Assembly (NCBI GenBank): GCA_938027655.1
Contig: CALJAP010000021.1
Span: forward strand, 15,879 to 79,878
DNA length: 64,000 nucleotides
DNA from: an uncultured bacterium
GTDB lineage: Bacteria; Armatimonadota; HRBIN16
Direction of reading: 5' to 3'
The position numbers and the translations under genes are program-made. Below, one piece after another: positions 2,794-62,800 of the stretch. Under the pieces are notes generated by a model. That model saw only the letters and a program-made list of their open reading frames with translations, was not told the origin of the DNA and made no database searches. The number at the start of each line of letters is the position of its first letter. The first letter of the stretch is position 1.

Positions 2794-4404
<1,611 letters not shown>

Positions 4405-38134: not shown

Positions 38135-38534
38135 CGTCGGTTCCTCCTGTCGTCCGGTTACTATCTGTTTTCCGCAGCAGATGGGCAGCTACCTGCCTTA
38201 TGTGAGACTGCTTGACGTTGAAGCGTGGAGAGCGTATCGTAAGGAAGGAGAATACTTAGGAGATGCCGGAAAGCACGCTGGAAAGAAAGTTGCAGGCTGA
38301 ATGCAGCGGTTCACTGCATGTGTACCGAGGGCACGAGATGGGCGAAGGAGCTGCTGCGCGAGCACGCCGTACGGATGGACTGGAGCTACTTGCGCCAGCG
38401 GGCACGGGTTGGCGAAGGCATGTCCAGCGCCAGCGAAAACGTGTATCTTCATTTTCGTGAATGCGGGGCAGGAGAACGGGGTGCAGGAGCAGGAATCCTT
38501 ACAAAGCTCCAATACGAGGGAAGGGTCTATTGGT

Positions 38535-39131
38535 ATGGCAGCTTTCTGGCGCCGGTGGCTAGGGCGCAAGCAGGTTGTCCTCTCTTTGGGCAAAGGTGCG
38601 GAGATCCGCCAGCTGACCCTGCAAGATGCTCCGGCGTTGTTCGACCTGACCGTGCGCAACCGCGAACGCTTGCGTCGCTGGATGAGCTGGGTGGATTTCG
38701 TGCGCAGTGAGGAGGATACGCGGGGCTTTATTCGCGAGTCGTTACGCAAATTTCGTTCAGCACGCAGCCTGCAGATGGGGATATGGTGGAACGGTAGCCT
38801 GGTAGGTACGGTTGGGCTGTTTCGCACTGCCAGCGCGGAGCAGGAGGCGGAAATCGGCTACTGGATCGATGAGGCGGCAGAAGGACAGGGGTTGGTAACC
38901 CGCGCCACACGAGAACTGGTTCGTTACGCCTTTGAGCAGTGGCAGGTGCCGGCGGTGCGCATTCGTGTGGAGCCCGAAAACGTCCGCAGTCGCGCTATCC
39001 CTGAGCGGTTGGGCTTTCGCCTGCGCGGGGAGGTAACAGAGGACTGGGCGGACGGCAGCCAACGCACTTTGCTGATATATGTGATGCGTGTCTCCGAGTT
39101 TCATGATCAGCACACAGAAGAACACGGGTGA
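38535..39131 (+). CDS. GNAT-family N-acetyltransferase (RimJ/RimL-like)
   Basis: GTVGLFRTASAEQEAEIGYWIDEAAEGQGLVTRATRELVRYAFE. The start is probably ATG at 38535 (RBS GAGGGAAGGG). The track ORF begins upstream at 38301. Confidence 0.75.
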   Translation: MAAFWRRWLGRKQVVLSLGKGAEIRQLTLQDAPALFDLTVRNRERLRRWMSWVDFVRSEEDTRGFIRESLRKFRSARSLQMGIWWNGSLVGTVGLFRTASAEQEAEIGYWIDEAAEGQGLVTRATRELVRYAFEQWQVPAVRIRVEPENVRSRAIPERLGFRLRGEVTEDWADGSQRTLLIYVMRVSEFHDQHTEEHG

Positions 39132-39160
39132 GACGGATTGATGCGGATTGCCCAACCGTC

Positions 39161-39456
39161 TTCATCCGTATGCTATTTCCCGGAAGGACACGGATTGACA
39201 CAGATGAGACGAATTGGCACAGATACTATCCGTGTTCATCCGTTGCATCGGTGTTTATCCGTGTGCTATTTCCCGGAAGGACACGGATTGACACAGATGA
39301 GACGGACCGGCACAGATACTGTCCGTGTTCATTCGTTGCATCGGTGTTTATCCGTGTGCTATTTCCCGCAAGGACACGGATTGACACAGATGAGACGGAG
39401 CGGCACAGATACTATCCGTGTTCATCCGTTGCATCGGTGTTTATCCGTGTGCTATC
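39161..39456 (+). repeat. 93-bp tandem direct repeat, about 3.2 copies, each unit a strong hairpin
   Basis: Unit TTATCCGTGTGCTATTTCCCGGAAGGACACGGATTGACACAGATGAGACGGACCGGCACAGATACTGTCCGTGTTCATTCGTTGCATCGGTGT contains the stem ATCCGTGT/ACACGGAT. Copies are 90-95 % identical. Confidence 0.85.
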
Positions 39457-39475
39457 AAGCCGTGAGGAGGTTCTC

Positions 39476-39856
39476 ATGCTACACAAACAGTTGACCAACA
39501 AAATCATCGCTGCATTCTACAAGGTGTACAACACACTGGGGTACGGCTTTCTGGAAAAAGTGTATGAGAACGCGCTCGCCCACGAGCTGCGTCAGCAAGG
39601 TTTGGATATACGTCAACAGATGCCTATCAAAGTGTATTATGACGGTCAGGTGGTAGGAGAGTATGTCGCTGATTTATGCGTAGAGGGATGCGTGATCGTG
39701 GAGATTAAAGCGGCAGAGTCGTTATGTCCTGAGCACGAAGCACAGCTGCTCAACTATCTGAGAGCCACCGAGATAGAAGTTGGATTGCTGTGCAATTTTG
39801 GTCCGCAACCTGTATTCGCTCGAAAAATACTCACCAACGACAGAAAAGAAACCTAA
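39476..39856 (+). CDS. GxxExxY protein (PD-(D/E)XK-like small protein, TIGR04256-type)
   Basis: GYGFLEKVYENAL matches the GxxExxY motif. The product is 126 aa with a strong RBS GGAGG. Local GC is below that of its surroundings. Confidence 0.7.
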   Translation: MLHKQLTNKIIAAFYKVYNTLGYGFLEKVYENALAHELRQQGLDIRQQMPIKVYYDGQVVGEYVADLCVEGCVIVEIKAAESLCPEHEAQLLNYLRATEIEVGLLCNFGPQPVFARKILTNDRKET

Positions 39857-39945
39857 TCCATAAAGGCCTCTTTCCTGAAGCGGCATTTCGCTATTGAAAA
39901 TGTTGGCTTCGCTGGGGTACACTGGGAACACCAGGTAAGCAGGAG

Positions 39946-40740
39946 GTGTCCGCTATCGCACACGTAGCACACGAACATGACGAGGGGCGCAGACGCTTCC
40001 TCAAAGCCTCGGCGCTGGGCATCGCGGCAATCGCCAGCGGTTTGCCTGCCGTCGAGAGCTTGGCAGAAACAACAGGGAACGTTTTCAGACTCAACAGGAG
40101 GATAGGAGCGATGGAGGTTGTGAAGATCGTAGCGAAGCCGCTGCCGGAGAAAGTGTACAACACCGAGAGCGCAGGCATTTCACGCAAGACACACGATGAA
40201 CACTACAAGCTGTATCAGGGCTATGTGAACAAAGCGAATGAGATCCGCGAGAAGCTGGCTGCGTTGGACAAAGACCCGGCAAAGGCGAACCAGACCTATT
40301 CGGACATCCGCGTGCTGAAGGTGGAGTACACCTTTGCGCTGGGCGGCGTGAAGAACCATGAACTGTACTTTGACATTCTGGGTGGCAAAGGCGGCGCGCC
40401 TACGGGACCTGTAGCCGAGGCGATTAACAAGCACTTCGGCTCGTACGAGGCGTGGGCGCAGGACCTGAAAGCGACCGGCATCGCCGCGCGCGGGTGGGTG
40501 TGGCTTGCGCTGGACCACGACGATGGGAGCCTGTTCAACTATATCGGTGACGCGCAGAACACTTTCCCGATATGGAACGCCACGCCCATTCTCGCGCTGG
40601 ACACTTACGAGCATGCCTACTACTACGACTTCCAGACCGCCCGCGCCAAGTACATCGACGCCTTCTTGCAGGTGATCGACTGGGATGCGGTGAACGCACG
40701 GCTGGAACAGGCATTAAAGATGTATAACGCGGGGAGATAA
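39946..40740 (+). CDS. sodA: Fe/Mn superoxide dismutase with an N-terminal twin-arginine (Tat) signal
   Basis: Tat motif RRRFLKASALGIAAIASG. SOD signatures THDEHYKLYQGYVN, GWVWLALD and DTYEHAYYYDFQTARAKYIDAF are present. The start codon is uncertain; GTG at 39946 is proposed. Confidence 0.8.
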   Translation: MSAIAHVAHEHDEGRRRFLKASALGIAAIASGLPAVESLAETTGNVFRLNRRIGAMEVVKIVAKPLPEKVYNTESAGISRKTHDEHYKLYQGYVNKANEIREKLAALDKDPAKANQTYSDIRVLKVEYTFALGGVKNHELYFDILGGKGGAPTGPVAEAINKHFGSYEAWAQDLKATGIAARGWVWLALDHDDGSLFNYIGDAQNTFPIWNATPILALDTYEHAYYYDFQTARAKYIDAFLQVIDWDAVNARLEQALKMYNAGR

Positions 40741-51640: not shown

Positions 51641-52798
51641 TTATTCAGGCCCCGCAGGAATTGCCTGCCCCTGTGCGCTATCCCAACCATGCAGGTTGCC
51701 GTCCAGCGCGCACAGCACGTTCGAATGCTGTGCCTCCAGTTTTGCTTCCTCGGTGATGTCGTGTCCACCCACTGCTGCCATGCAGGGATAGCCCGCCTTG
51801 CGCATCAGCTCGGCACGACGACGCGCCCGGGCAACATCGCTTACATCGACCACCATCGAAACTTCCATCACCAGATAAATATCCCTGTCCGGTGCGTCTA
51901 GTGGGCGTCCGCGCGCGATGATGTCCGCCGAGAAGATGTCCACTATTTCATCGCCAGCGAGCGCTTGCCTGACCTGCTCCTCGATGTCCGGCGGTGACAA
52001 CAGCCGTACGCGGCGCATTACCTTGCCCAAGTAGGCGTGGATGTGCTTGGCGTAGTGCATCTCCAGACGCCAGCCGCGCAGGTCGTCGATGTGCACATCG
52101 CGCACCTTCTGCCATTCCACCAGCCTGTCTATCTTCTCTGCCAGTAGCGCTATCTGCATATCGATGCGGTCTAGCCTGCTGTTAGTTGCCTCACGATAGG
52201 AGGAGAACTCCTCCACCACACGGTTGTGGCTTTCGGTCAACGCCTGTAATGCCGCCTCAATGCGTGCGAAACGCTCCTCTGATGCCTGGCGATACGCGGC
52301 AAACTCCTGTGCCAGATGCTCCAGCGCCGCCTCAATGCGTGCGAAACGCTCCTCCGATGCCTGGCGATAGGCAGCGAACTCCTGAGCCTGACGCTCCAGC
52401 GCCGCCTCGATTCGTGCGAAACGCTCCTCCGACATCTGGCGGTAAGACACGAACTCCTGAGCCTGACGCTCCAGCGCCGCCTCAATGCGTGCGAAACGCT
52501 CCTCCGATGCCTGACGATACGCGGCAAACTCCTGTGCCAGATGCTCCAGCGCCGCCTCAATGCGTGCGAAACGCTCTTCCGACATCTGGCGGTAAGACAC
52601 AAATTCCTGTGCCTGACGCTCCAGAAGGGACTCGATCCGCGCGAATCGCTCGGCGGATTGCTCGGCTAATCGCTCCACCTTTGCAGGCAGGGCGAGGAAC
52701 TCGTCCGGCGCGAGGGCGACAAACACCTTTCGGCGCAGCTCCGCATTGCTACGCAGAAGCTCTATCAGTTCTTCTACATCGGGAGTGTCGATAGGCAT
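51641..52798 (-). CDS. Coiled-coil protein built from 25-aa (75-bp) tandem repeats, with a C-terminal domain possibly of restriction-endonuclease-like fold
   Basis: EERFARIEAAL(E/H)(R/L)(Q/A)AQEF(V/A)(S/A)YRQ(M/A)S repeated about 5.5 times at near identity. The C-terminal 150 aa contain D...DIYLVMEVS...D in a PD-(D/E)XK-like arrangement. Confidence 0.5.
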   Translation of the reverse strand: MPIDTPDVEELIELLRSNAELRRKVFVALAPDEFLALPAKVERLAEQSAERFARIESLLERQAQEFVSYRQMSEERFARIEAALEHLAQEFAAYRQASEERFARIEAALERQAQEFVSYRQMSEERFARIEAALERQAQEFAAYRQASEERFARIEAALEHLAQEFAAYRQASEERFARIEAALQALTESHNRVVEEFSSYREATNSRLDRIDMQIALLAEKIDRLVEWQKVRDVHIDDLRGWRLEMHYAKHIHAYLGKVMRRVRLLSPPDIEEQVRQALAGDEIVDIFSADIIARGRPLDAPDRDIYLVMEVSMVVDVSDVARARRRAELMRKAGYPCMAAVGGHDITEEAKLEAQHSNVLCALDGNLHGWDSAQGQAIPAGPE

Positions 52799-59600: not shown

Positions 59601-60485
59601 GGCTTCGGCGACAGGGTACGCTTGCGATGGCATACCGGCATCGTCGGGGCGCATCATGCCAACCTGCTGGAGGAACCCCTGCAAGCCCTTTCTCTGCAGG
59701 ACGGAGCGGTAGAGTTCCCGCTGGATAGCTTCGCCATCGAAACCTTCCTGCTGAAGCCGAAACCTTTTACCCCGAAGGGCGGACGCCGTGTGCTGGGCGC
59801 AACGACCGAACCCGTGCAGCCGGTGTACGTGCGCTACTGGCAACACAATCTCGGCGCCGACCCCATCGGCTACCTGCCGGTGGCGGTGAGCCTGCGCGGA
59901 GAGGTGAAGACGGGTATCCACATCCGCCAGGGAGGCGTGACGGTCAACACGATCGAGGTGGGCGTCGTGAATAACCTACGCGACCGCAACGCGACGGGCG
60001 TCGTTCGCCTAATCGTCCCGGAAGGCTGGCACACTGTGCCTGCGGAGATTCCGTTTGACCTGCCTCCGGGCGAGGCACACTGCTGGAAGGTGCTGCTCTG
60101 CTTCGACACACCGCGGCGGACGGGTGTGGTGCGCGCCCGGCTGGAGTGGGATGGGCAAACTTATGAGGATATTCTGGAGGTCGGACGCGAGTACTTCCCC
60201 GAATGGGATGTACATCTCGTTCGGAATGCGCTGCTCGTGCGCCTGCGCAACGGCACAGACGACCTCATCCATGGCGCGGTGCAGGTGATTACGCCACTGG
60301 AGACATGGGGCGACGCCGCGGGACTATACCGCCTGACCGCTGGCGGCAAGCACACGCAGGGTTTCGGTCTGCAACCCGACGAGCGTGCGGAGATACGCTT
60401 CGAGGGGGAGCCACCGCCCGGGCGAGGCTTCATCATCGTAAAGGTGATGGCGCATGGCAAGGTAGAGTACCGCAAGGTACAATAA
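56670..60485 (+). CDS. GH38-family alpha-mannosidase
   Basis: VVPGFHSDVVWLEDQ and ...GGSHSQPTETVIGGEGIVRNILYGRWY... match the GH38 N-terminal catalytic domain. 1271 aa. Confidence 0.7.
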   Translation: MAQRTCTYVVPGFHSDVVWLEDQRDYAVSLLGDMHQNLQILRIDPRYGVFLHELTYLKPYLDTHPEALPEVRRWVQEGRIGTGGSHSQPTETVIGGEGIVRNILYGRWYHEGVLGDQPWIYMPWDVFGHTAQLGQILRKSRFRGCIWSKDIRGALAVFWHLALDGEPLLFKRMGYWLPSGDPETFLKAIDDFFQEMRSLGFTADCRLDCVDFKPPTAWMAGRCEELAGREHAVIISGIGHEQWFEHAFRQHEERTVSIPVTSRDYEWHHQGTGLSRIELKIGNRLAEQNLHQAEFFATVAHLLGAEYPDKALDKAWRQLLFNQHHDGIAGPSCDRAYLDMMAGFREALELAHDVRSRSLRYICDQTDTAYTAPPPTVIALQVHNALGWSRTDAVHVTLRFPKPVSGFRIEDSEGNAVPCQLESPVPPRLPLHEAEVTLLARDIPAMGFRTYRVVETDSLPPAPRLIPGYAIENEFFRVTADPQLGGGLSSLFDKQAGREVLNPQAGPGNEIVALLEKADRAEPAWECYTLGPKWFSRDYAANVQAWQGPVQSRLVIRGEMRSCEREQVVSLTQGVRRIDFATQLQRYRGENELFVVTFPVNVQNAEPVFEERFGAITKRKSKGKLDFRFHQWRNFSECGARHACQWVDLSGAAWVRFADGQQRPFGMCHLVTSHHPASVQAAYTLQRALIRKGVPCTPVYDDFDAPRRLQLPVEDTILPFPNNPNEDLSLGMSFRVVFSLNGDNTYLSDLMAHLPETQATRLQALLSEQQGIALVDDPDMPDGWQPLPVLVIAAKDEATLQQMVQQLSEQIEQSAAIVLPAEANLLQRPIPADSYGVALVNTGNVLNSVENDNTMVLFLMHTAAWGGTPWGKPDRLPFVFIPEHKTHLFRYSLYPHRGDWREAQTARVGWEVNNPLQTVQGMLHGGALPLDYSFLQVEAKGAILTALKPADNPTGRFESGAVDAERGSIVVRLYDPTGFGDRVRLRWHTGIVGAHHANLLEEPLQALSLQDGAVEFPLDSFAIETFLLKPKPFTPKGGRRVLGATTEPVQPVYVRYWQHNLGADPIGYLPVAVSLRGEVKTGIHIRQGGVTVNTIEVGVVNNLRDRNATGVVRLIVPEGWHTVPAEIPFDLPPGEAHCWKVLLCFDTPRRTGVVRARLEWDGQTYEDILEVGREYFPEWDVHLVRNALLVRLRNGTDDLIHGAVQVITPLETWGDAAGLYRLTAGGKHTQGFGLQPDERAEIRFEGEPPPGRGFIIVKVMAHGKVEYRKVQ

Positions 60486-60505
60486 AGGCCGGAGGTGGGC
60501 GAAGC

Positions 60506-61162
60506 ATGCAACCCGCGCTGAAAACCGACAAGATGACCATGACCTATGAGGAGTTCCGTCAGTGGGCAGGGGAAGATACCTGTGCCGAGTGGGTGGATGG
60601 GGAGGTCATTTTACCGAGGCCACCAAAGAGAAAACATCAGTCTATCACTATATTCCTGACCCGATTGCTGAGTGATTTTCTGGAACTCACCGGGCAGGGA
60701 GAAGCGATTGCCGCTCCTTTTGAGACCTTTTTACCCTCTCGCCCAGCATCGCGCGAGCCGGATATAATCGTGGTGCTCAGTGAGAATCTGCAAAAGTTGA
60801 GCGAGGAACGCTTCACCGGTGCCCCTGACCTTGTGGTGGAGGTGGTTTCGGAGGATAGCGTGCGCCGTGACCGGATGGAGAAGTTTCTGGAATACGAGCG
60901 CGAGGGCGTGCGCGAGTACTGGCTGGTCGATTCGCGCCCGGCGCATCTGGGGGTAGATGTCTTCACGCTGGAGCAAGGCAGTTTCGTGCCTCTCGTGCCG
61001 AGTGAAGAAGGCTGGCTGGAGAGCAAGGTGCTGCCCGGCTTCCGGGTGAAGGAGACGTGGTTTACCGGGCAATCGCTTCCTGACGTGTACAGCGCGTTGA
61101 GCGAGATGCTGTCTCCCGATTTAAAGCAGAAGCTGGCGCAGAAGCTGGGCATCCCCCTGTAG
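60506..61162 (+). CDS. Uma2-family (DUF820) putative endonuclease
   Basis: MTYEEFRQW...AEWVDGEV...PDIIVV...APDLVVEVVSE...REYWLVD. The ATG at 60506 has RBS GGAGGTG. The track ORF extends upstream to 60203. Confidence 0.8.
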   Translation: MQPALKTDKMTMTYEEFRQWAGEDTCAEWVDGEVILPRPPKRKHQSITIFLTRLLSDFLELTGQGEAIAAPFETFLPSRPASREPDIIVVLSENLQKLSEERFTGAPDLVVEVVSEDSVRRDRMEKFLEYEREGVREYWLVDSRPAHLGVDVFTLEQGSFVPLVPSEEGWLESKVLPGFRVKETWFTGQSLPDVYSALSEMLSPDLKQKLAQKLGIPL

Positions 61163-61397
61163 GGGCAACCCTATGTGGTTGCCCCTACCCTATGTGGTTG
61201 CCCCTACCCTGTGTGGTTGCCCCTGCCCTGTGTAGTTGCCCCTGCGCTATGCGGTTGACCCTACCCTATGCGGTTGCCCCTGCGCTATGTGGTTGCCCCT
61301 GCCCTGTGTGGTTGCCCTGCCCTATGTGGTTGCCTCTGCCCTATGTGGTTGCCCTGCCCTATGCGGTTGCCCCTGCCCTATGTGGTTGCCCCTGCCC
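61163..61397. repeat. Tandem array of a 19-bp unit CTATGTGGTTGCCCCTGCC, 12 copies with point variants (two units are 18 bp)
   Basis: Head-to-tail copies with no spacers. The period is not a multiple of three. The array begins with the hairpin GGGGCAACC-ctatgt-GGTTGCCCC. It fills the entire gap between the convergent stops at 61162 and 61405. Confidence 0.9.
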
Positions 61398-61404
61398 GCG
61401 CAAT

Positions 61405-62550
61405 CTATCCTATCGCTTCCAGCTCTTTCTGCAGCACCTCGGTATAGGTTGGGTCGTCTTCGTCAATCTTCTCCAGCACCGCCTTCAGCAGGTTGATGTA
61501 GCTGATGTCGGTGGGGTTCACGCCGTAGAGCAGCGCGAGGTAGCAGCTCACCCAATCGCCGAAGTAGATGGCATAGAGCATTCGCGCCAGCAGGCTCTGC
61601 CCCTCGGCAAACACTTCGTGCACCTGCGCTGCGCGGGCAAACAGTCGTTTCGTCGTCTCCACACGCGCCACGATTTTCGGTCGCTCCGCATGGTCGCGCA
61701 ACAGCACTACTGCCAGATTGGGAACCTGTTGCTTCGCCAGCACCCACCCCAGGATTTCGTTGTGGTTCATCTCGGGGTAGCCATTGGAGAAAGCGTGAAT
61801 CTTGGTGTTCTCGTTCAACTGCGTCTTCCAGCGAAAGGCGACGACGGTGGAATACGCCTGCGAGCCGTAGATGAGGGGCAGCTTGCCGTACAGCCCCGCA
61901 GCAAGCTGCTTGGCAGGGTTCTTCTCGAACGGCACATCGGCGTTCCACTGCTCTCGTGCCCGCTCCAGCAAGGCGATAGCGTTCTGCAGGTCACCGGTGG
62001 GATCACGTCGGAGGACACCCGCCTTATGCGCCGCCATCAGCATAGGGATAAACAGGTAGCCCATCGCGCTGCGAGGGGGCTGTCCCTTAGGGATAAACGC
62101 GACAGGGGTGCCGTAGTGCGCCGCGCGTTGAGCCAGCTCGCCACCGCTGGTTACGCACGCCAGAAGCGCGCCCCGGTCCTGTGCGTCCTCGAACGCGCTC
62201 AGCGTTTCCTCGGTGTTGCCGGAATAGCTGGCAGCGATCACGAAGGTATGGTCGTTCACGAAAGCGGGCATCTGGTAGTCACGGTTCACCACCAGAGGCA
62301 CTTCGCCGTTGTCTTCTACCAGCACGCGCAGCAGGTCGCCCCCTACCGCCGAGCCGCCCAGCCCCGTCACCACAACATTCTGGATAGGCATGCGCGGTGT
62401 AGGAGGATTGAACTGCTTCGCGATGTCCAGTGCTTTGCGACATTGTTCGGGGAAGTCATGGGTCAGGGGAATCATATTCTGAGCATCCAGCACGGAACGA
62501 CGCGCCGCATCGTCCAGCACGCTGGTGTCTACCGCAACCTGATCGGACAT
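61405..62550 (-). CDS. Bifunctional phosphoglucose/phosphomannose isomerase (SIS-domain PGI/PMI family)
   Basis: SYSGNTEETL, tandem SIS domains and the C-terminal PGI/PMI signature. Start at 62550 has RBS GAAGGAGGAG. Confidence 0.75.
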   Translation of the reverse strand: MSDQVAVDTSVLDDAARRSVLDAQNMIPLTHDFPEQCRKALDIAKQFNPPTPRMPIQNVVVTGLGGSAVGGDLLRVLVEDNGEVPLVVNRDYQMPAFVNDHTFVIAASYSGNTEETLSAFEDAQDRGALLACVTSGGELAQRAAHYGTPVAFIPKGQPPRSAMGYLFIPMLMAAHKAGVLRRDPTGDLQNAIALLERAREQWNADVPFEKNPAKQLAAGLYGKLPLIYGSQAYSTVVAFRWKTQLNENTKIHAFSNGYPEMNHNEILGWVLAKQQVPNLAVVLLRDHAERPKIVARVETTKRLFARAAQVHEVFAEGQSLLARMLYAIYFGDWVSCYLALLYGVNPTDISYINLLKAVLEKIDEDDPTYTEVLQKELEAIG

Positions 62551-62569
62551 TACCTCAGCTCCTCCTTCA

Positions 62570-62800
62570 TCACTCCGCCACAAAGGGCAGTAGAGCCAGA
62601 TGGCGCGCCCGCTTAATCGCCTTAGCCAGCTGTCGCTGGTGCTTGGCGCAGTTACCACTGGTACGTCGTGCGACAATCTTGCCCCGATCCGTGATGTATC
62701 GGCGCAAGCGAGCCACGTTCTTGTAGTCGATATAGGCGACTTTATCCACGCAGAAGCCGCACACCTTGCGGCGTCGCCGGTAGCGCGGTTTGTTGGTCAT
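62570..62800 (-). CDS. rpsR: 30S ribosomal protein S18
   Basis: [55 protein letters not shown]. Confidence 0.95.

What the first reader, a model, noticed from the sequence alone, without database searches (positions are those of the whole stretch)
39161..39856. 93-bp tandem hairpin repeats (3.2 copies) immediately upstream of a GxxExxY/PD-(D/E)XK-like gene in a lower-GC islet
Each repeat unit carries an 8-bp perfect stem (ATCCGTGT...ACACGGAT), a second small hairpin (ACAG-ata-CTGT) and a TTGACAC box. Copies differ only by a few point changes, which suggests recent duplication. The array ends 20 nt before the RBS of a 126-aa GxxExxY protein. The whole stretch 39130-39900 is visibly more AT-rich than its flanks, consistent with horizontal acquisition. 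It could be a repetitive structured leader, a tandem promoter or operator array, or the footprint of a small mobile element carrying the GxxExxY gene. The long ORF 39128-39856 that reads through the repeats is probably an artefact.
Basis: seen in the sequence. Interest (0 to 1): 0.6.

Follow-up and report, generated by a model that had tools for sequence, protein, structure and literature searches.

The report
Palindromic repeats partnered with GxxExxY nuclease
The three 93-bp repeats are gene-less palindromic copies of the inverted "arms" that bracket GxxExxY mini-nuclease genes in many bacterial phyla and at least one archaeon; together they form a small, apparently undescribed selfish cassette that resembles REP elements and the intervening sequences of 23S rRNA.

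Summary
In detail: a 93-bp unit repeated 3.1 times (39164-39455), directly upstream of a 126-aa GxxExxY/PF13366 nuclease gene, in a low-GC stretch.

Each unit is an imperfect palindrome of two ~41-nt arms. Each arm consists of four sub-repeats (core ACACGGAT, general form RCNGAT) spaced 9-11 nt apart.

- **Same arms elsewhere.** Arms with consensus ATAGAAC-RCNGAT-GAC-RCNGAT-N3-RCGGAT-N4-RCGGAT lie within 90 nt of 59 of 75 related GxxExxY genes from many phyla. In 33 of these they form inverted repeats around the gene.
- **Arms without the gene.** They are also common as gene-less hairpins or solo arms. GxxExxY is the only recurrent cargo.
- **Second subfamily.** A GxxExxY subfamily inside BREX and restriction-modification (R-M) operons has arms of the same design with a different core (CGCGAAA).
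- **Insertion.** Two close relatives have the acetyltransferase (GNAT) gene directly next to the superoxide dismutase (SOD) gene, so about 0.68 kb is an indel.
- **Published analogue.** 23S rRNA intervening sequences (IVS) carry a small ORF between inverted arms that contain tandem short repeats.

Best reading: a REPIN/IVS-like selfish cassette whose arms are read sequence-specifically, most likely by the encoded nuclease. This mechanism is inferred, not shown. I found no Rfam family and no paper describing these arms.

The parts
38481..39131 (+). Upstream host gene, a GNAT (RimL-like) acetyltransferase. The start is uncertain. Its last ~8 codons (..HDQHTEEHG*) and its stop codon lie inside the degenerate arm.
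   Evidence: PF13302 E 2e-26. Called as 216 aa in L252. The C-terminus differs in the relatives L258 and L256.
39109..39150 (+). Degenerate forward arm F' (AGCACACAGAAGAACACGGGTGAGACGGATTGATGCGGATTG).
   Evidence: Direct-repeat family D2 and inverted pairs I5/I6. The empty-site relative L258 keeps this arm; L256 lacks it.
39153..39176 (+). Remnant of reverse arm R' (..CTTCATCCGTATGCTAT).
   Evidence: Read from the sequence. The part from about 39163 onward is missing in L258.
39177..39186 (.). 10-nt spacer TTCCCGGAAG. It recurs at 39270-39279 and, as TTCCCGCAAG, at 39363-39372.
   Evidence: A similar motif, TTCCTGAAG, lies at 39869, and TTCCTGAC lies at the L258 junction.
39187..39269 (.). Palindromic unit 1. 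Forward arm 39187-39226: GAC-ACGGAT-tgac-ACAGAT-gag-ACGAAT-tggc-ACAGAT-ac. Reverse arm 39227-39269, ending GTGTGCTAT.
   Evidence: Inverted pair I3. RNA fold -39.3 kcal/mol, z -5.5.
39280..39362 (.). Palindromic unit 2 (forward arm 39280-39319, reverse arm 39320-39362).
   Evidence: Fold -41.9 kcal/mol.
39373..39455 (.). Palindromic unit 3 (forward arm 39373-39412, reverse arm 39413-39455). Its outer end GTGTGCTAT lies 20 nt before the ATG.
   Evidence: Inverted pair I4. Fold -43.6 kcal/mol. This unit is kept in the one-unit assemblies L252/L253.
39464..39470 (+). Ribosome-binding site GAGGAGG, 5 nt before the ATG.
   Evidence: Read from the sequence.
39476..39856 (+). GxxExxY protein gene, 126 aa: a minimal RecB/Cas4-like PD-(D/E)XK nuclease. 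The motifs G24xxE27xxY30, D66, E76-x-K78 and Q90xxxY94 are all intact.
   Evidence: Invariant columns. AlphaFold2 model pLDDT 92.5. Best structural matches are Cas4 SSO0001, lambda-exonuclease-like proteins and Hjc.
39163..39845 (.). Approximate extent of the indel relative to the empty-site relatives: end of R', three units and the ORF, about 0.66-0.69 kb. The exact ends are blurred.
   Evidence: Alignment with L258 (SOD 97% identical) and L256 (90%). GC trough.
39946..40740 (+). Downstream host gene, an Fe/Mn superoxide dismutase with a twin-arginine (TAT) signal peptide.
   Evidence: PF02777/PF00081 and the TIGR01409 TAT signal.

Best explanation
The 93-bp repeats are three tandem, gene-less palindromic units of a widespread repeat family. 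The 'arms' of this family normally bracket GxxExxY nuclease genes as inverted repeats. Together with the adjacent gene they form a ~0.68-kb selfish cassette, inserted between a GNAT gene and a superoxide dismutase gene of a probable Armatimonadota genome.

**Design, shown directly.** Each arm begins with a sharply conserved outer heptamer, ATAGAAC. In the window this is ATAGCAC on the reverse arm and GAAGGAC on the forward arm. Four phased sub-repeats RCNGAT follow, with periods of 9, 9 and 10 nt.

**How it most likely works, inferred.**
1. The arms are cis-acting ends that are read sequence-specifically.
2. The same nuclease acts in trans on the far more numerous gene-less hairpins and solo arms, as RAYT transposases are thought to do with REPINs.
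3. The gene has no promoter of its own and is expressed by read-through from the host gene upstream.
4. The tandem array grows and shrinks by recombination between arms.
5. In transcripts or single-stranded DNA the arms can also pair, as in 23S rRNA intervening sequences. I regard this as secondary.
For: **Anatomy of the window.**

**The arm family belongs to GxxExxY genes.**
- The most enriched 7-mers upstream of 80 GxxExxY loci from many phyla are ATCCGTG, ATCCGCG and ATAGAAC. Enrichment is 14-19 fold, in 29-35 loci each.
- 59 of 75 loci have an arm within 90 nt, against a background of 0.12 arrays per kb. 33 of 75 have the layout forward arm - gene - reverse arm.
- A logo of 107 arms shows conservation starting abruptly at ATAGAAC, with sub-repeat periods of 9, 9 and 10 nt.

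**Gene-less copies exist, and GxxExxY is the only recurrent cargo.**
- Of 202 pattern matches in metagenomic and viral contigs, 44 are hairpins and 9 lie next to the gene. 111 of 143 metagenomic matches carry independent hallmarks of a real arm.
- Among arm pairs that enclose gene-sized DNA, 4 enclose GxxExxY and no other family recurs.

**The constraint is on sequence more than on pairing.**
- Arms of one element are only slightly more alike than arms of different elements: 0.74 against 0.63-0.69.
- The central N of the core matches between the two arms in 0.54-0.58 of pairs; the null is 0.49.
- C, G, A and T of each core are nearly invariant across phyla.

**The core co-varies with the protein subfamily.**
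- Subfamily A: 58 of 74 loci have RCNGAT arms and 2 of 74 have CGCNAAA arms.
- Subfamily B (42% identical): 0 of 6 and 6 of 6 respectively.

**Presence/absence and instability.**
- Empty sites occur in L258 and L256.
- Unit number varies in natural populations, with the junction inside an arm.
- At one position in pglX three states are seen: empty, gene-less hairpin, or an S23p cassette.
- The stretch has low GC. PMC3424549 reports multiple transfers for this protein family.

**The nuclease looks active.** The motifs are invariant, and the model is confident with a Cas4/lambda-exonuclease/Hjc-like fold.

**The gene looks promoterless.** It is co-directional with its upstream neighbour in 61 of 69 loci. 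The median distance from that gene's stop to the GxxExxY start is 91 nt.
Against: - No biochemical or genetic evidence shows that the protein binds or cuts the arms. The co-variation rests on two subfamilies only, and could partly reflect co-inheritance of arms and gene.
- No consistent target-site duplication was found, and no empty site has ends exactly at ATAGAAC/GTTCTAT.
- The copy-number changes I saw are explained by homologous recombination, not transposition.
- The window itself is atypical: the outer end of a reverse arm abuts the gene, and there is no arm downstream (10 of 75 loci are of this class).
- Any forward arm can pair strongly with any reverse arm: -46.9 kcal/mol within a locus, -39.8 between loci, -15.3 after shuffling. 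In the published analogue, the Coxiella IVS, the arms are an RNase III substrate (PMC4990558). An RNA-level role is therefore not excluded.
- Whether genomes that carry arms always carry a GxxExxY gene could not be tested.
Confidence: 0.5

Rival explanations
1. IVS-like RNA element. The arms work mainly in the transcript. Forward and reverse arms (or each hairpin unit) form long double-stranded RNA stems that RNase III or other RNases cleave, or that block exonucleases. This would insulate, process or stabilise the cassette mRNA and its neighbours. The conserved core would then be a by-product of recent spread.
For: - The published Coxiella 23S IVS has the same design: a small ORF, terminal inverted repeats, and 2-3 tandem GACAGAT heptamers before the ATG. 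RNase III excises it (PMC4990558).
- S23p cassettes in L233 and L294 have near-perfectly complementary arms made of heptamers.
- The window units fold at about -40 kcal/mol, z about -6.
- Forward-by-reverse arm duplexes are strong in all cassettes.
- The elements are co-oriented with flanking genes and sit just after stop codons.
Against: - Core sequence, not pairing, is what is conserved across phyla. The central base of the core mismatches between arms in about 45% of pairs.
- The sense strand has no folding advantage: it is more stable in 2 of 9 cases.
- In subfamily B the left and right arms differ consistently (G,G,T against G,T,G) in six contexts.
- Solo arms are common and cannot form a stem.
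- There is no Rfam family and no terminator-like tail.
Confidence: 0.27
2. Type III toxin-antitoxin-like module. The tandem repeats are transcribed into a repetitive antitoxin RNA, which the adjacent nuclease processes and which in turn inhibits it, as in ToxIN.
For: - A tandem array lies immediately upstream of a small nuclease gene.
- Similar arrays of 2-3 units lie next to GxxExxY genes in six other lineages.
Against: - The protein is PD-(D/E)XK, not a ToxN/AbiQ, CptN or TenpN type.
- The units are 93-nt palindromes, not 34-40-nt direct repeats.
- There is no terminator between the array and the gene.
- Most loci have single inverted arms on both sides of the gene rather than arrays.
- In other loci the arrays lie downstream of the gene.
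- The arms mostly occur without the gene.
Confidence: 0.03
3. Tandem promoter or operator array. The phased sub-repeats are binding sites for a regulator (a host factor, or the GxxExxY protein acting as a repressor) that controls transcription of the gene or of sod.
For: - The 9-10-nt phasing places the sites roughly on one face of the DNA helix.
- The array lies directly upstream of the gene.
Against: - No promoter-like site lies in the array.
- The same arms also lie downstream of the gene, inside coding sequence (pglX) and in phage intergenic regions.
- They are conserved in phyla with different promoter types and in an archaeon.
- The gene usually has no room for a promoter of its own.
Confidence: 0.08
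4. A functionless local duplication, or an assembly artefact, of an otherwise ordinary intergenic hairpin.
For: - Same-strain assemblies carry one unit instead of three.
- Short-read contigs break at the repeat.
Against: - The three copies differ at specific positions, so they are not a simple assembler loop.
- The unit belongs to a conserved cross-phylum family.
- Diverged two-unit and one-unit alleles exist in other populations.
Confidence: 0.05

Closest known systems
REP/BIME elements and REPINs with their RAYT transposases (PMC3116915, PMC3337134, PMC3733652)
   Same: - Short imperfect palindromes sit in intergenic DNA, mostly just downstream of co-directional ORFs.
- They often occur as inverted dimers and tandem arrays.
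- Gene-less copies far outnumber a single associated gene, and that gene is itself flanked by the repeats in inverted orientation.
   Different: - The associated gene is a PD-(D/E)XK (RecB/Cas4-like) mini-nuclease, not an HUH Y1 transposase.
- The arms are built from 3-4 phased sub-repeats and lack the GTAG/CGTC tag.
- The arm consensus is shared across phyla and by one archaeal locus, rather than being lineage-specific.
- Copy number within a single genome is unknown.
ORF-bearing intervening sequences (IVS) of 23S rRNA, from Leptospira and Coxiella (PMC4990558)
   Same: - A small ORF of about 120 aa sits between terminal inverted repeats.
- Short tandem repeats (GACAGAT, 2-3 copies, number varying by strain) lie between the terminus and the start codon.
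- GC is low and distribution is sporadic, pointing to horizontal spread.
- These elements are described as selfish, with unknown mobility.
- S23p cassettes and GxxExxY-type hairpins occupy the same site in pglX.
   Different: - The ORF here is PF13366, not PF05635.
- The host site is an mRNA intergenic region, not 23S helix 9, 25 or 45.
- Sub-repeats are 9-10 nt rather than 7 nt.
- GxxExxY arms conserve sequence rather than perfect pairing.
- RNase III cleavage has not been tested here.
Miniature inverted-repeat transposable elements (MITEs) and their autonomous TIR transposons
   Same: - Terminal inverted repeats have a sharply conserved outer end.
- Gene-less derivatives exist.
- Presence/absence polymorphism is seen.
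   Different: - There is no DDE transposase.
- No consistent target-site duplication was found.
Type III toxin-antitoxin loci (ToxIN)
   Same: A tandem repeat array lies directly upstream of a small nuclease gene.
   Different: - The toxin family is different.
- The units are palindromic and 93 nt long.
- There is no intervening terminator.
- The array is optional, and in other loci it lies on either side of the gene.
Cas4 / RecB-family nucleases
   Same: The fold and the motifs D..ExK and QxxxY are shared. The best structural match is SSO0001.
   Different: - The protein is half the size.
- The sequence match to the Cas4 profile is only marginal (E 0.0034).
- I saw no cas genes in the loci examined.

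Membership tests
GxxExxY protein (TIGR04256 / Pfam PF13366 PDDEXK_3) | Profile match above the curated cut-off | tested here: met
   PF13366 scores 144.9 bits (cut-off 22). TIGR04256 scores 144.8 bits (cut-off 35).
GxxExxY protein (TIGR04256 / Pfam PF13366 PDDEXK_3) | GxxExxY motif together with the PD-(D/E)XK catalytic residues | tested here: met
   G24-F-L-E27-K-V-Y30, D66, E76-I-K78 and Q90..Y94 are present; these columns are invariant or nearly invariant in the 23-sequence alignment. The fold is confirmed.
GxxExxY-associated inverted arms (the class defined in this report) | Arm of about 41 nt made of 3-4 RCNGAT cores at 9-10-nt period | tested here: met
   The window arms have four cores each, with periods of 9-11 nt.
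GxxExxY-associated inverted arms (the class defined in this report) | Conserved outer heptamer ATAGAAC / GTTCTAT | tested here: inconclusive
   The reverse arms end GTGCTAT (6 of 7 positions). The forward arms start GAAGGAC (4 of 7 positions).
GxxExxY-associated inverted arms (the class defined in this report) | Forward arm upstream and reverse arm downstream of the gene | tested here: not met
   The window has complete hairpins upstream and no arm downstream. It belongs to the minority class (10 of 75 loci).
REP / REPIN-RAYT | Associated gene is a RAYT (HUH Y1 transposase) | tested here: not met
   The only associated gene is PF13366.
REP / REPIN-RAYT | Short extragenic palindromes, mostly downstream of ORFs, often as inverted dimers | tested here: met
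REP / REPIN-RAYT | GTAG or CGTC tag at one end (PMC3733652) | tested here: not met
   The terminus is A-T-A/G-G-A-A-C.
REP / REPIN-RAYT | Tens to hundreds of copies within one genome | not testable with these tools
   Only 64 kb of this genome is available, and it holds a single cluster.
23S rRNA IVS-type element | Small ORF between terminal inverted repeats, with short tandem repeats before the start codon | tested here: met
   Met at class level. In the window the hairpins precede the gene. The published description was read.
23S rRNA IVS-type element | Located inside a 23S rRNA gene | tested here: not met
   There is no rRNA or any other Rfam match in the window.
23S rRNA IVS-type element | ORF belongs to the S23p family (PF05635) | tested here: not met
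   The ORF is PF13366. True PF05635 cassettes were seen in L233 and L294.
23S rRNA IVS-type element | Excision of the element from the transcript by RNase III | not testable with these tools
   Only folding and duplex energies could be computed.
Type III toxin-antitoxin | ToxN/AbiQ, CptN or TenpN endoribonuclease toxin, 34-40-nt direct repeats, and a terminator before the toxin gene | tested here: not met
MITE / TIR transposon | Target-site duplication flanking the inverted repeats | tested here: inconclusive
   No consistent duplication appears in 14 canonical loci. One locus (L079) has a 31-nt imperfect flanking repeat.
Integron gene cassette | attC recombination site with core sites RYYYAAC and GTTRRRY | tested here: not met
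   By reading, ATAGAAC and GTTCTAT do not fit these consensus sites. I did not search for an integron integrase (IntI).

The most novel reading that the evidence does not exclude
GxxExxY proteins are the mobilising or homing nucleases of a previously unrecognised, cross-domain class of selfish cassettes. A minimal RecB/Cas4-like nuclease reads inverted ends built from phased 9-10-nt sub-repeats and propagates both itself and gene-less palindromes. These insert into operon junctions, defence operons (BREX, R-M) and even coding sequences. The class would be the sister of the long-unexplained ORF-bearing 23S rRNA intervening sequences.
Probability: 0.3. Interest if true: 0.85.

Novelty: new variant of a known kind. 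Interest (0 to 1): 0.68.

Why it matters
- **A testable role for a large family.** GxxExxY/PF13366 is very large (18,171 clusters at 50% identity), and its function was listed as 'Unknown' in the one survey I found (PMC3424549). A conserved, subfamily-specific cis element on both sides of the gene gives it a concrete hypothesis: protein and arm recognise each other.
- **A link to two older puzzles.** One is what moves ORF-bearing rRNA intervening sequences. The other is what mobilises REP-like palindromes that lack a dedicated transposase.
- **Practical consequences.**
  - The arms create spurious N- and C-terminal extensions and long false ORFs, such as 39128-39856.
  - They break short-read assemblies.
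  - They insert into BREX and R-M operons, and even into pglX coding sequence. This matters for annotating defence systems.

Tried and rejected
- **Rfam.** At gathering thresholds there was nothing in the window or in 20 canonical loci. At permissive E-values only miRNA-like hairpin noise appeared.
- **Solved structures by sequence.** No relative was found.
- **Defence and phage libraries.** PADLOC gave only a marginal Cas4 hit (E 0.0034). PHROGs gave none.
- **Promoter and terminator scan of 38900-40100.** No promoter lies in the array and there is no terminator.
- **Target-site duplications.** None was consistent.
- **Exact insertion ends relative to L258.** They are blurred by about 10% divergence and probably by more than one event.
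- **Strand asymmetry of hairpin folding, as a test for an RNA role.** Only 9 cases were informative, with no advantage for the sense strand.
- **Other cargo genes between or after arms.** ORFs downstream of gene-less arms are ordinary, unrelated host genes. Apart from GxxExxY and one phage structural-gene group, nothing clusters.
- **Plasmids.** The gene is rare there, in 8 of 72,556 records.
- **Literature.**
  - GxxExxY, PF13366, PDDEXK_3, TIGR04256 and IPR026350 returned nothing on function or on flanking repeats.
  - Ralph & McClelland 1993 is not held.
- **Integron attC and CsrA-site resemblances.** I considered these from memory and dropped them. The consensus sites do not fit, and core variants lack GGA.
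Full report
**1. The observation**

Tandem Repeats Finder reports a 93-bp period, 3.1 copies, 94% matches and score 528 at 39164-39455. The copies are 91-92% identical. The octamer ATCCGTGT/ACACGGAT occurs eight times in the 64-kb window, all between 39188 and 39450. Shuffles give 1.5, and none of 100 reaches 8.

The ORF 39476-39856 encodes a 126-aa protein that matches PF13366 PDDEXK_3 (E 1.7e-42) and TIGR04256 GxxExxY (E 1.3e-42). GC drops from about 0.60 to 0.46-0.51 across roughly 39100-39900. The finding is therefore real.

Minor corrections:
- The array ends 20 nt before the ATG, which is 8 nt before the RBS.
- The 'TTGACAC box' is the junction of two sub-repeats, and the scan does not flag it as a promoter.
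- The small tip hairpin is perfect only in copy 2.

**2. Anatomy**

Each 93-bp unit is an 83-nt imperfect palindrome plus a 10-nt spacer (TTCCCGGAAG). Each arm is about 41 nt and consists of four sub-repeats.
- Forward arm: GAC-ACGGAT-tgac-ACAGAT-gag-ACGAAT-tggc-ACAGAT.
- Reverse arm, read as its complement: ATAGCAC-ACGGAT-aaac-ACCGAT-gca-ACGGAT-gaac-ACGGAT.

The cores pair and the spacers mostly do not. The result is a stem of short helices interrupted by 1-nt mismatches. It folds at -39 to -44 kcal/mol on either strand, z about -6. A fourth, degenerate unit (39109-39176) overlaps the last codons and the stop codon of the upstream GNAT gene.

**3. Related loci**

One scan of species-representative genomes returned 80 GxxExxY loci. 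They come from Chloroflexota, Bacteroidota, Ignavibacteria, Acidobacteriota, Planctomycetota, Desulfobacterota, Nitrospirota, Armatimonadota and others, plus one Methanoperedenaceae archaeon.

- **Enrichment.** The most enriched 7-mers in the 300 nt upstream are ATCCGTG, ATCCGCG, ACACGGA and ATAGAAC. Enrichment is 14-19 fold, in 29-35 loci each.
- **Typical layout.** The upstream gene's stop is followed by ATAGAAC-RCNGAT-GAC-RCNGAT-N3-RCGGAT-N4-RCGGAT. Then come 6-50 nt containing an RBS, the ORF, and the reverse complement of the arm ending GTTCTAT. That reverse arm often overlaps the last codons.
- **Frequency.** With a two-core detector, 59 of 75 loci have an arm within 90 nt (background 0.12 arrays per kb). 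33 of 75 have the forward arm - gene - reverse arm layout. The window belongs to a minority of 10 of 75 in which the outer end of a reverse arm abuts the gene.
- **Logo.** A logo of 107 arms shows conservation beginning abruptly at ATAGAAC. Sub-repeat periods are 9, 9 and 10 nt, and conservation fades after the fourth core.
- **Tandem arrays elsewhere.** Arrays of hairpin units next to the gene recur independently in L006 (104 nt x 3.1), L008 (101 x 3.0), L019 (171 x 3.0), L033 (94 x 3.2), L047 (92 x 2.6) and L067 (126 x 2.2). The window's arrangement is thus a recurring variant.

**4. Are the arms tied to the gene?**

I scanned for GAACRCNGATGACRCNGAT without reference to the gene.

- 111 of 143 metagenomic matches carry independent hallmarks of a real arm, either an AT[AG] prefix or a third core. 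For viral matches the figure is 26 of 57.
- Only 9 of 202 matches are next to a GxxExxY ORF. 44 are gene-less hairpins. Most of the rest are solo or degenerate arms upstream of ordinary host genes.
- Thirteen related phage contigs share a solo arm placed just after a stop codon.
- Among arm pairs that enclose gene-sized DNA, four enclose GxxExxY and no other family recurs.

The relationship is therefore REP-like: many gene-less copies and one specific associated gene.

**5. Sequence constraint versus pairing constraint**

- Arms of one element are only slightly more alike than arms of different elements. For gene-flanking arms the values are 0.74 against 0.69, and for hairpins 0.74 against 0.63.
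- Between paired cores, the purine (R) position matches in 0.76 of cases (null 0.52). The central N matches in only 0.54-0.58 (null 0.49).
- C, G, A and T of every core are close to invariant across phyla.
- I found no folding advantage for the sense strand, though only 9 cases were informative.
- However, because all arms follow one consensus, any forward arm can pair with any reverse arm. Duplex energies are -46.9 kcal/mol within a locus, -39.8 between loci and -15.3 after shuffling. A stem around the ORF is therefore always possible.

**6. A second subfamily**

Proteins about 42% identical to the window protein (L276, P0241-P0360) sit inside defence operons with 4-nt start/stop overlaps:
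- brxC-[G]-pglX-[G]-pglZ
- hsdS-YhcG-[G]-hsdR
- hsdR-..-[G]-hsdM
- SNF2-DUF4391-[G]

The canonical BREX type 1 gene order has brxC directly before pglX; this is established knowledge, not tested here.

Their arms have the same design but a different core. Upstream is TTAAC-CGCGAAA-ag-CGCGAAA-ga-CGCTAAA, and downstream is its near-complement, with an exact 9-nt period. These arms are translated as ..DLTAKSAKDAKEE.. and ..NFRDFSAFRG*.

The contingency is clean:

| Subfamily | RCNGAT arms | CGCNAAA arms |
|---|---|---|
| A | 58 of 74 | 2 of 74 |
| B | 0 of 6 | 6 of 6 |

All sub-repeats of an arm changed together with the protein. This is my main argument that the encoded protein reads the arms.

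**7. Insertion and instability**

- **Empty sites.** Close relatives L258 (SOD 97% identical) and L256 (90%) have GNAT directly followed by SOD. Alignment places the indel at about 39163-39845. L258 keeps the degenerate forward arm and L256 does not. The exact ends are blurred.
- **Copy number in this strain.** Same-strain assemblies carry one complete unit instead of three.
- **Copy number elsewhere.** In another population, alleles with one and two diverged units differ by a junction inside a reverse arm. That pattern indicates recombination between arms.
- **Assembly breaks.** Short-read contigs end at the arms.
- **Three states at one site.** At a single position in pglX the site is empty (L287), holds a gene-less B-type hairpin (L293), or holds a PF05635 cassette with heptamer arms (L294). 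In L294 the host reading frame stays open through the insert.

**8. The protein**

- The alignment keeps G24xxE27xxY30, D66, E76-x-K78 and Q90xxxY94 invariant or nearly so.
- The AlphaFold2 model is confident (pLDDT 92.5). Its best structural matches are Cas4 SSO0001 (E 5e-5), lambda-exonuclease-like enzymes, Hjc and tRNA-splicing endonucleases.
- No solved relative was found by sequence, and there is no defence-system or phage family match.
- The family has 18,171 clusters at 50% identity. It includes two-domain fusions, which hint at a dimer.
- In the 80 loci the gene is co-directional with its upstream neighbour in 61 of 69 cases. The median stop-to-start distance is 91 nt, most of it arm. 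I infer expression by read-through.

**9. Comparison with what is known**

I found no Rfam family. I found no paper on GxxExxY function or its flanking repeats. PMC3424549 lists PF13366 as 'Unknown' with multiple transfers.

- **REP/REPIN-RAYT (PMC3116915, PMC3733652).** This is the closest functional analogue, but its defining transposase and end tags are absent here.
- **ORF-bearing 23S rRNA IVS.** This is the closest structural analogue. In Coxiella a 428-nt 'selfish' element carries an S23p ORF, a 28-bp terminal stem cut by RNase III, and 2-3 tandem GACAGAT heptamers before the ATG, with the number varying by strain (PMC4990558).
- **S23p cassettes in my own loci.** The two I found also have arms made of tandem heptamers. 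Their cores are unrelated to each other but their arms are almost perfectly complementary. GxxExxY arms show the opposite pattern.

**10. Verdict**

Shown:
- the anatomy of the repeats;
- the cross-phylum arm family and its statistical tie to GxxExxY genes;
- the existence of gene-less copies;
- subfamily-specific cores;
- the indel and the copy-number instability;
- an intact nuclease fold.

Inferred:
- the nuclease reads the arms;
- the cassette is or was mobile;
- the hairpins are non-autonomous copies.

The IVS-like RNA role remains a serious rival, and both could hold at once. I file the finding as a new variant of a known kind (REPIN/IVS-like palindromic cassette with a different partner protein). 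There is about a 30% chance that it represents a genuinely new class of nuclease-driven mobile element.

Noticed in passing
window 61169-61397: 12.2 tandem copies of a 19-nt unit (CCCTATGTGGTTGCCCCTG) lie in the gap between convergent ORFs 60203-61162 (+) and 61405-62676 (-). They are preceded by GGGGCAACC, which is complementary to part of each unit.
   Followed up: no
window 52251-52624: A 75/150-nt tandem repeat (5 copies, 84-87% matches) lies inside ORF 51641-52798 (-). It probably encodes a repetitive protein.
   Followed up: no
L277-L299 (e.g. L277 1501-1953, L287 1501-1968, L296 1501-1965): A second GxxExxY subfamily is embedded in BREX and type I R-M operons with 4-nt gene overlaps, sometimes twice in one BREX locus. 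Its arms use the core CGCGAAA and are translated as part of the ORF.
   Followed up: partly
L294 ~470-920, L293 and L287 (same pglX position): One position inside the BREX methyltransferase gene pglX exists in three states: empty, a gene-less GxxExxY-type hairpin, or a PF05635 (S23p) cassette with heptamer arms. The pglX reading frame stays open through the ~430-nt cassette, although the cassette's own ORF is in another frame.
   Followed up: partly
L233 2330-2830: A PF05635 (23S rRNA IVS protein) ORF is flanked by perfectly complementary arms of four heptamers: GGCTGTC-GGCATTC-GGCTATC-GGCGTTC and its reverse complement.
   Followed up: partly
L079, flanks of the cassette around 2900-3500: The cassette is flanked by a 31-nt imperfect direct repeat (26 of 31 identical). 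The repeat duplicates the last ~10 codons of the upstream carboxyltransferase gene.
   Followed up: no
L203, L207, L226 and 10 related viral contigs: A solo forward arm (TGA-ATAGAAC-GCAGAT-GAC-GCAGAT-..) is conserved between two phage genes, 35-53 nt before a 162-aa ORF.
   Followed up: partly
L022 1806-2249 and L080 2950-3387: These GxxExxY ORFs are interrupted by an in-frame stop, so they are probable pseudogenes.
   Followed up: no
P0361-P0365 and similar proteins: Proteins of 250-270 aa contain two GxxExxY domains in tandem, which suggests the single-domain protein works as a dimer.
   Followed up: no
window 39177, 39270, 39363, 39869; L258 junction: The spacer motif TTCCCGGAAG recurs as TTCCTGAAG downstream of the gene and as TTCCTGAC at the empty-site junction in L258. 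It may be a target or recombination site.
   Followed up: partly
L001, L009, L014, L020: In four Chloroflexota genomes the GxxExxY cassette sits in the same place: L001, L014 and L020 share the upstream 4-hydroxyphenylpyruvate dioxygenase-like gene, and L001 and L009 share the downstream homogentisate dioxygenase-like gene. Gene names are inferred from the translated ends, not from a profile search.
   Followed up: no
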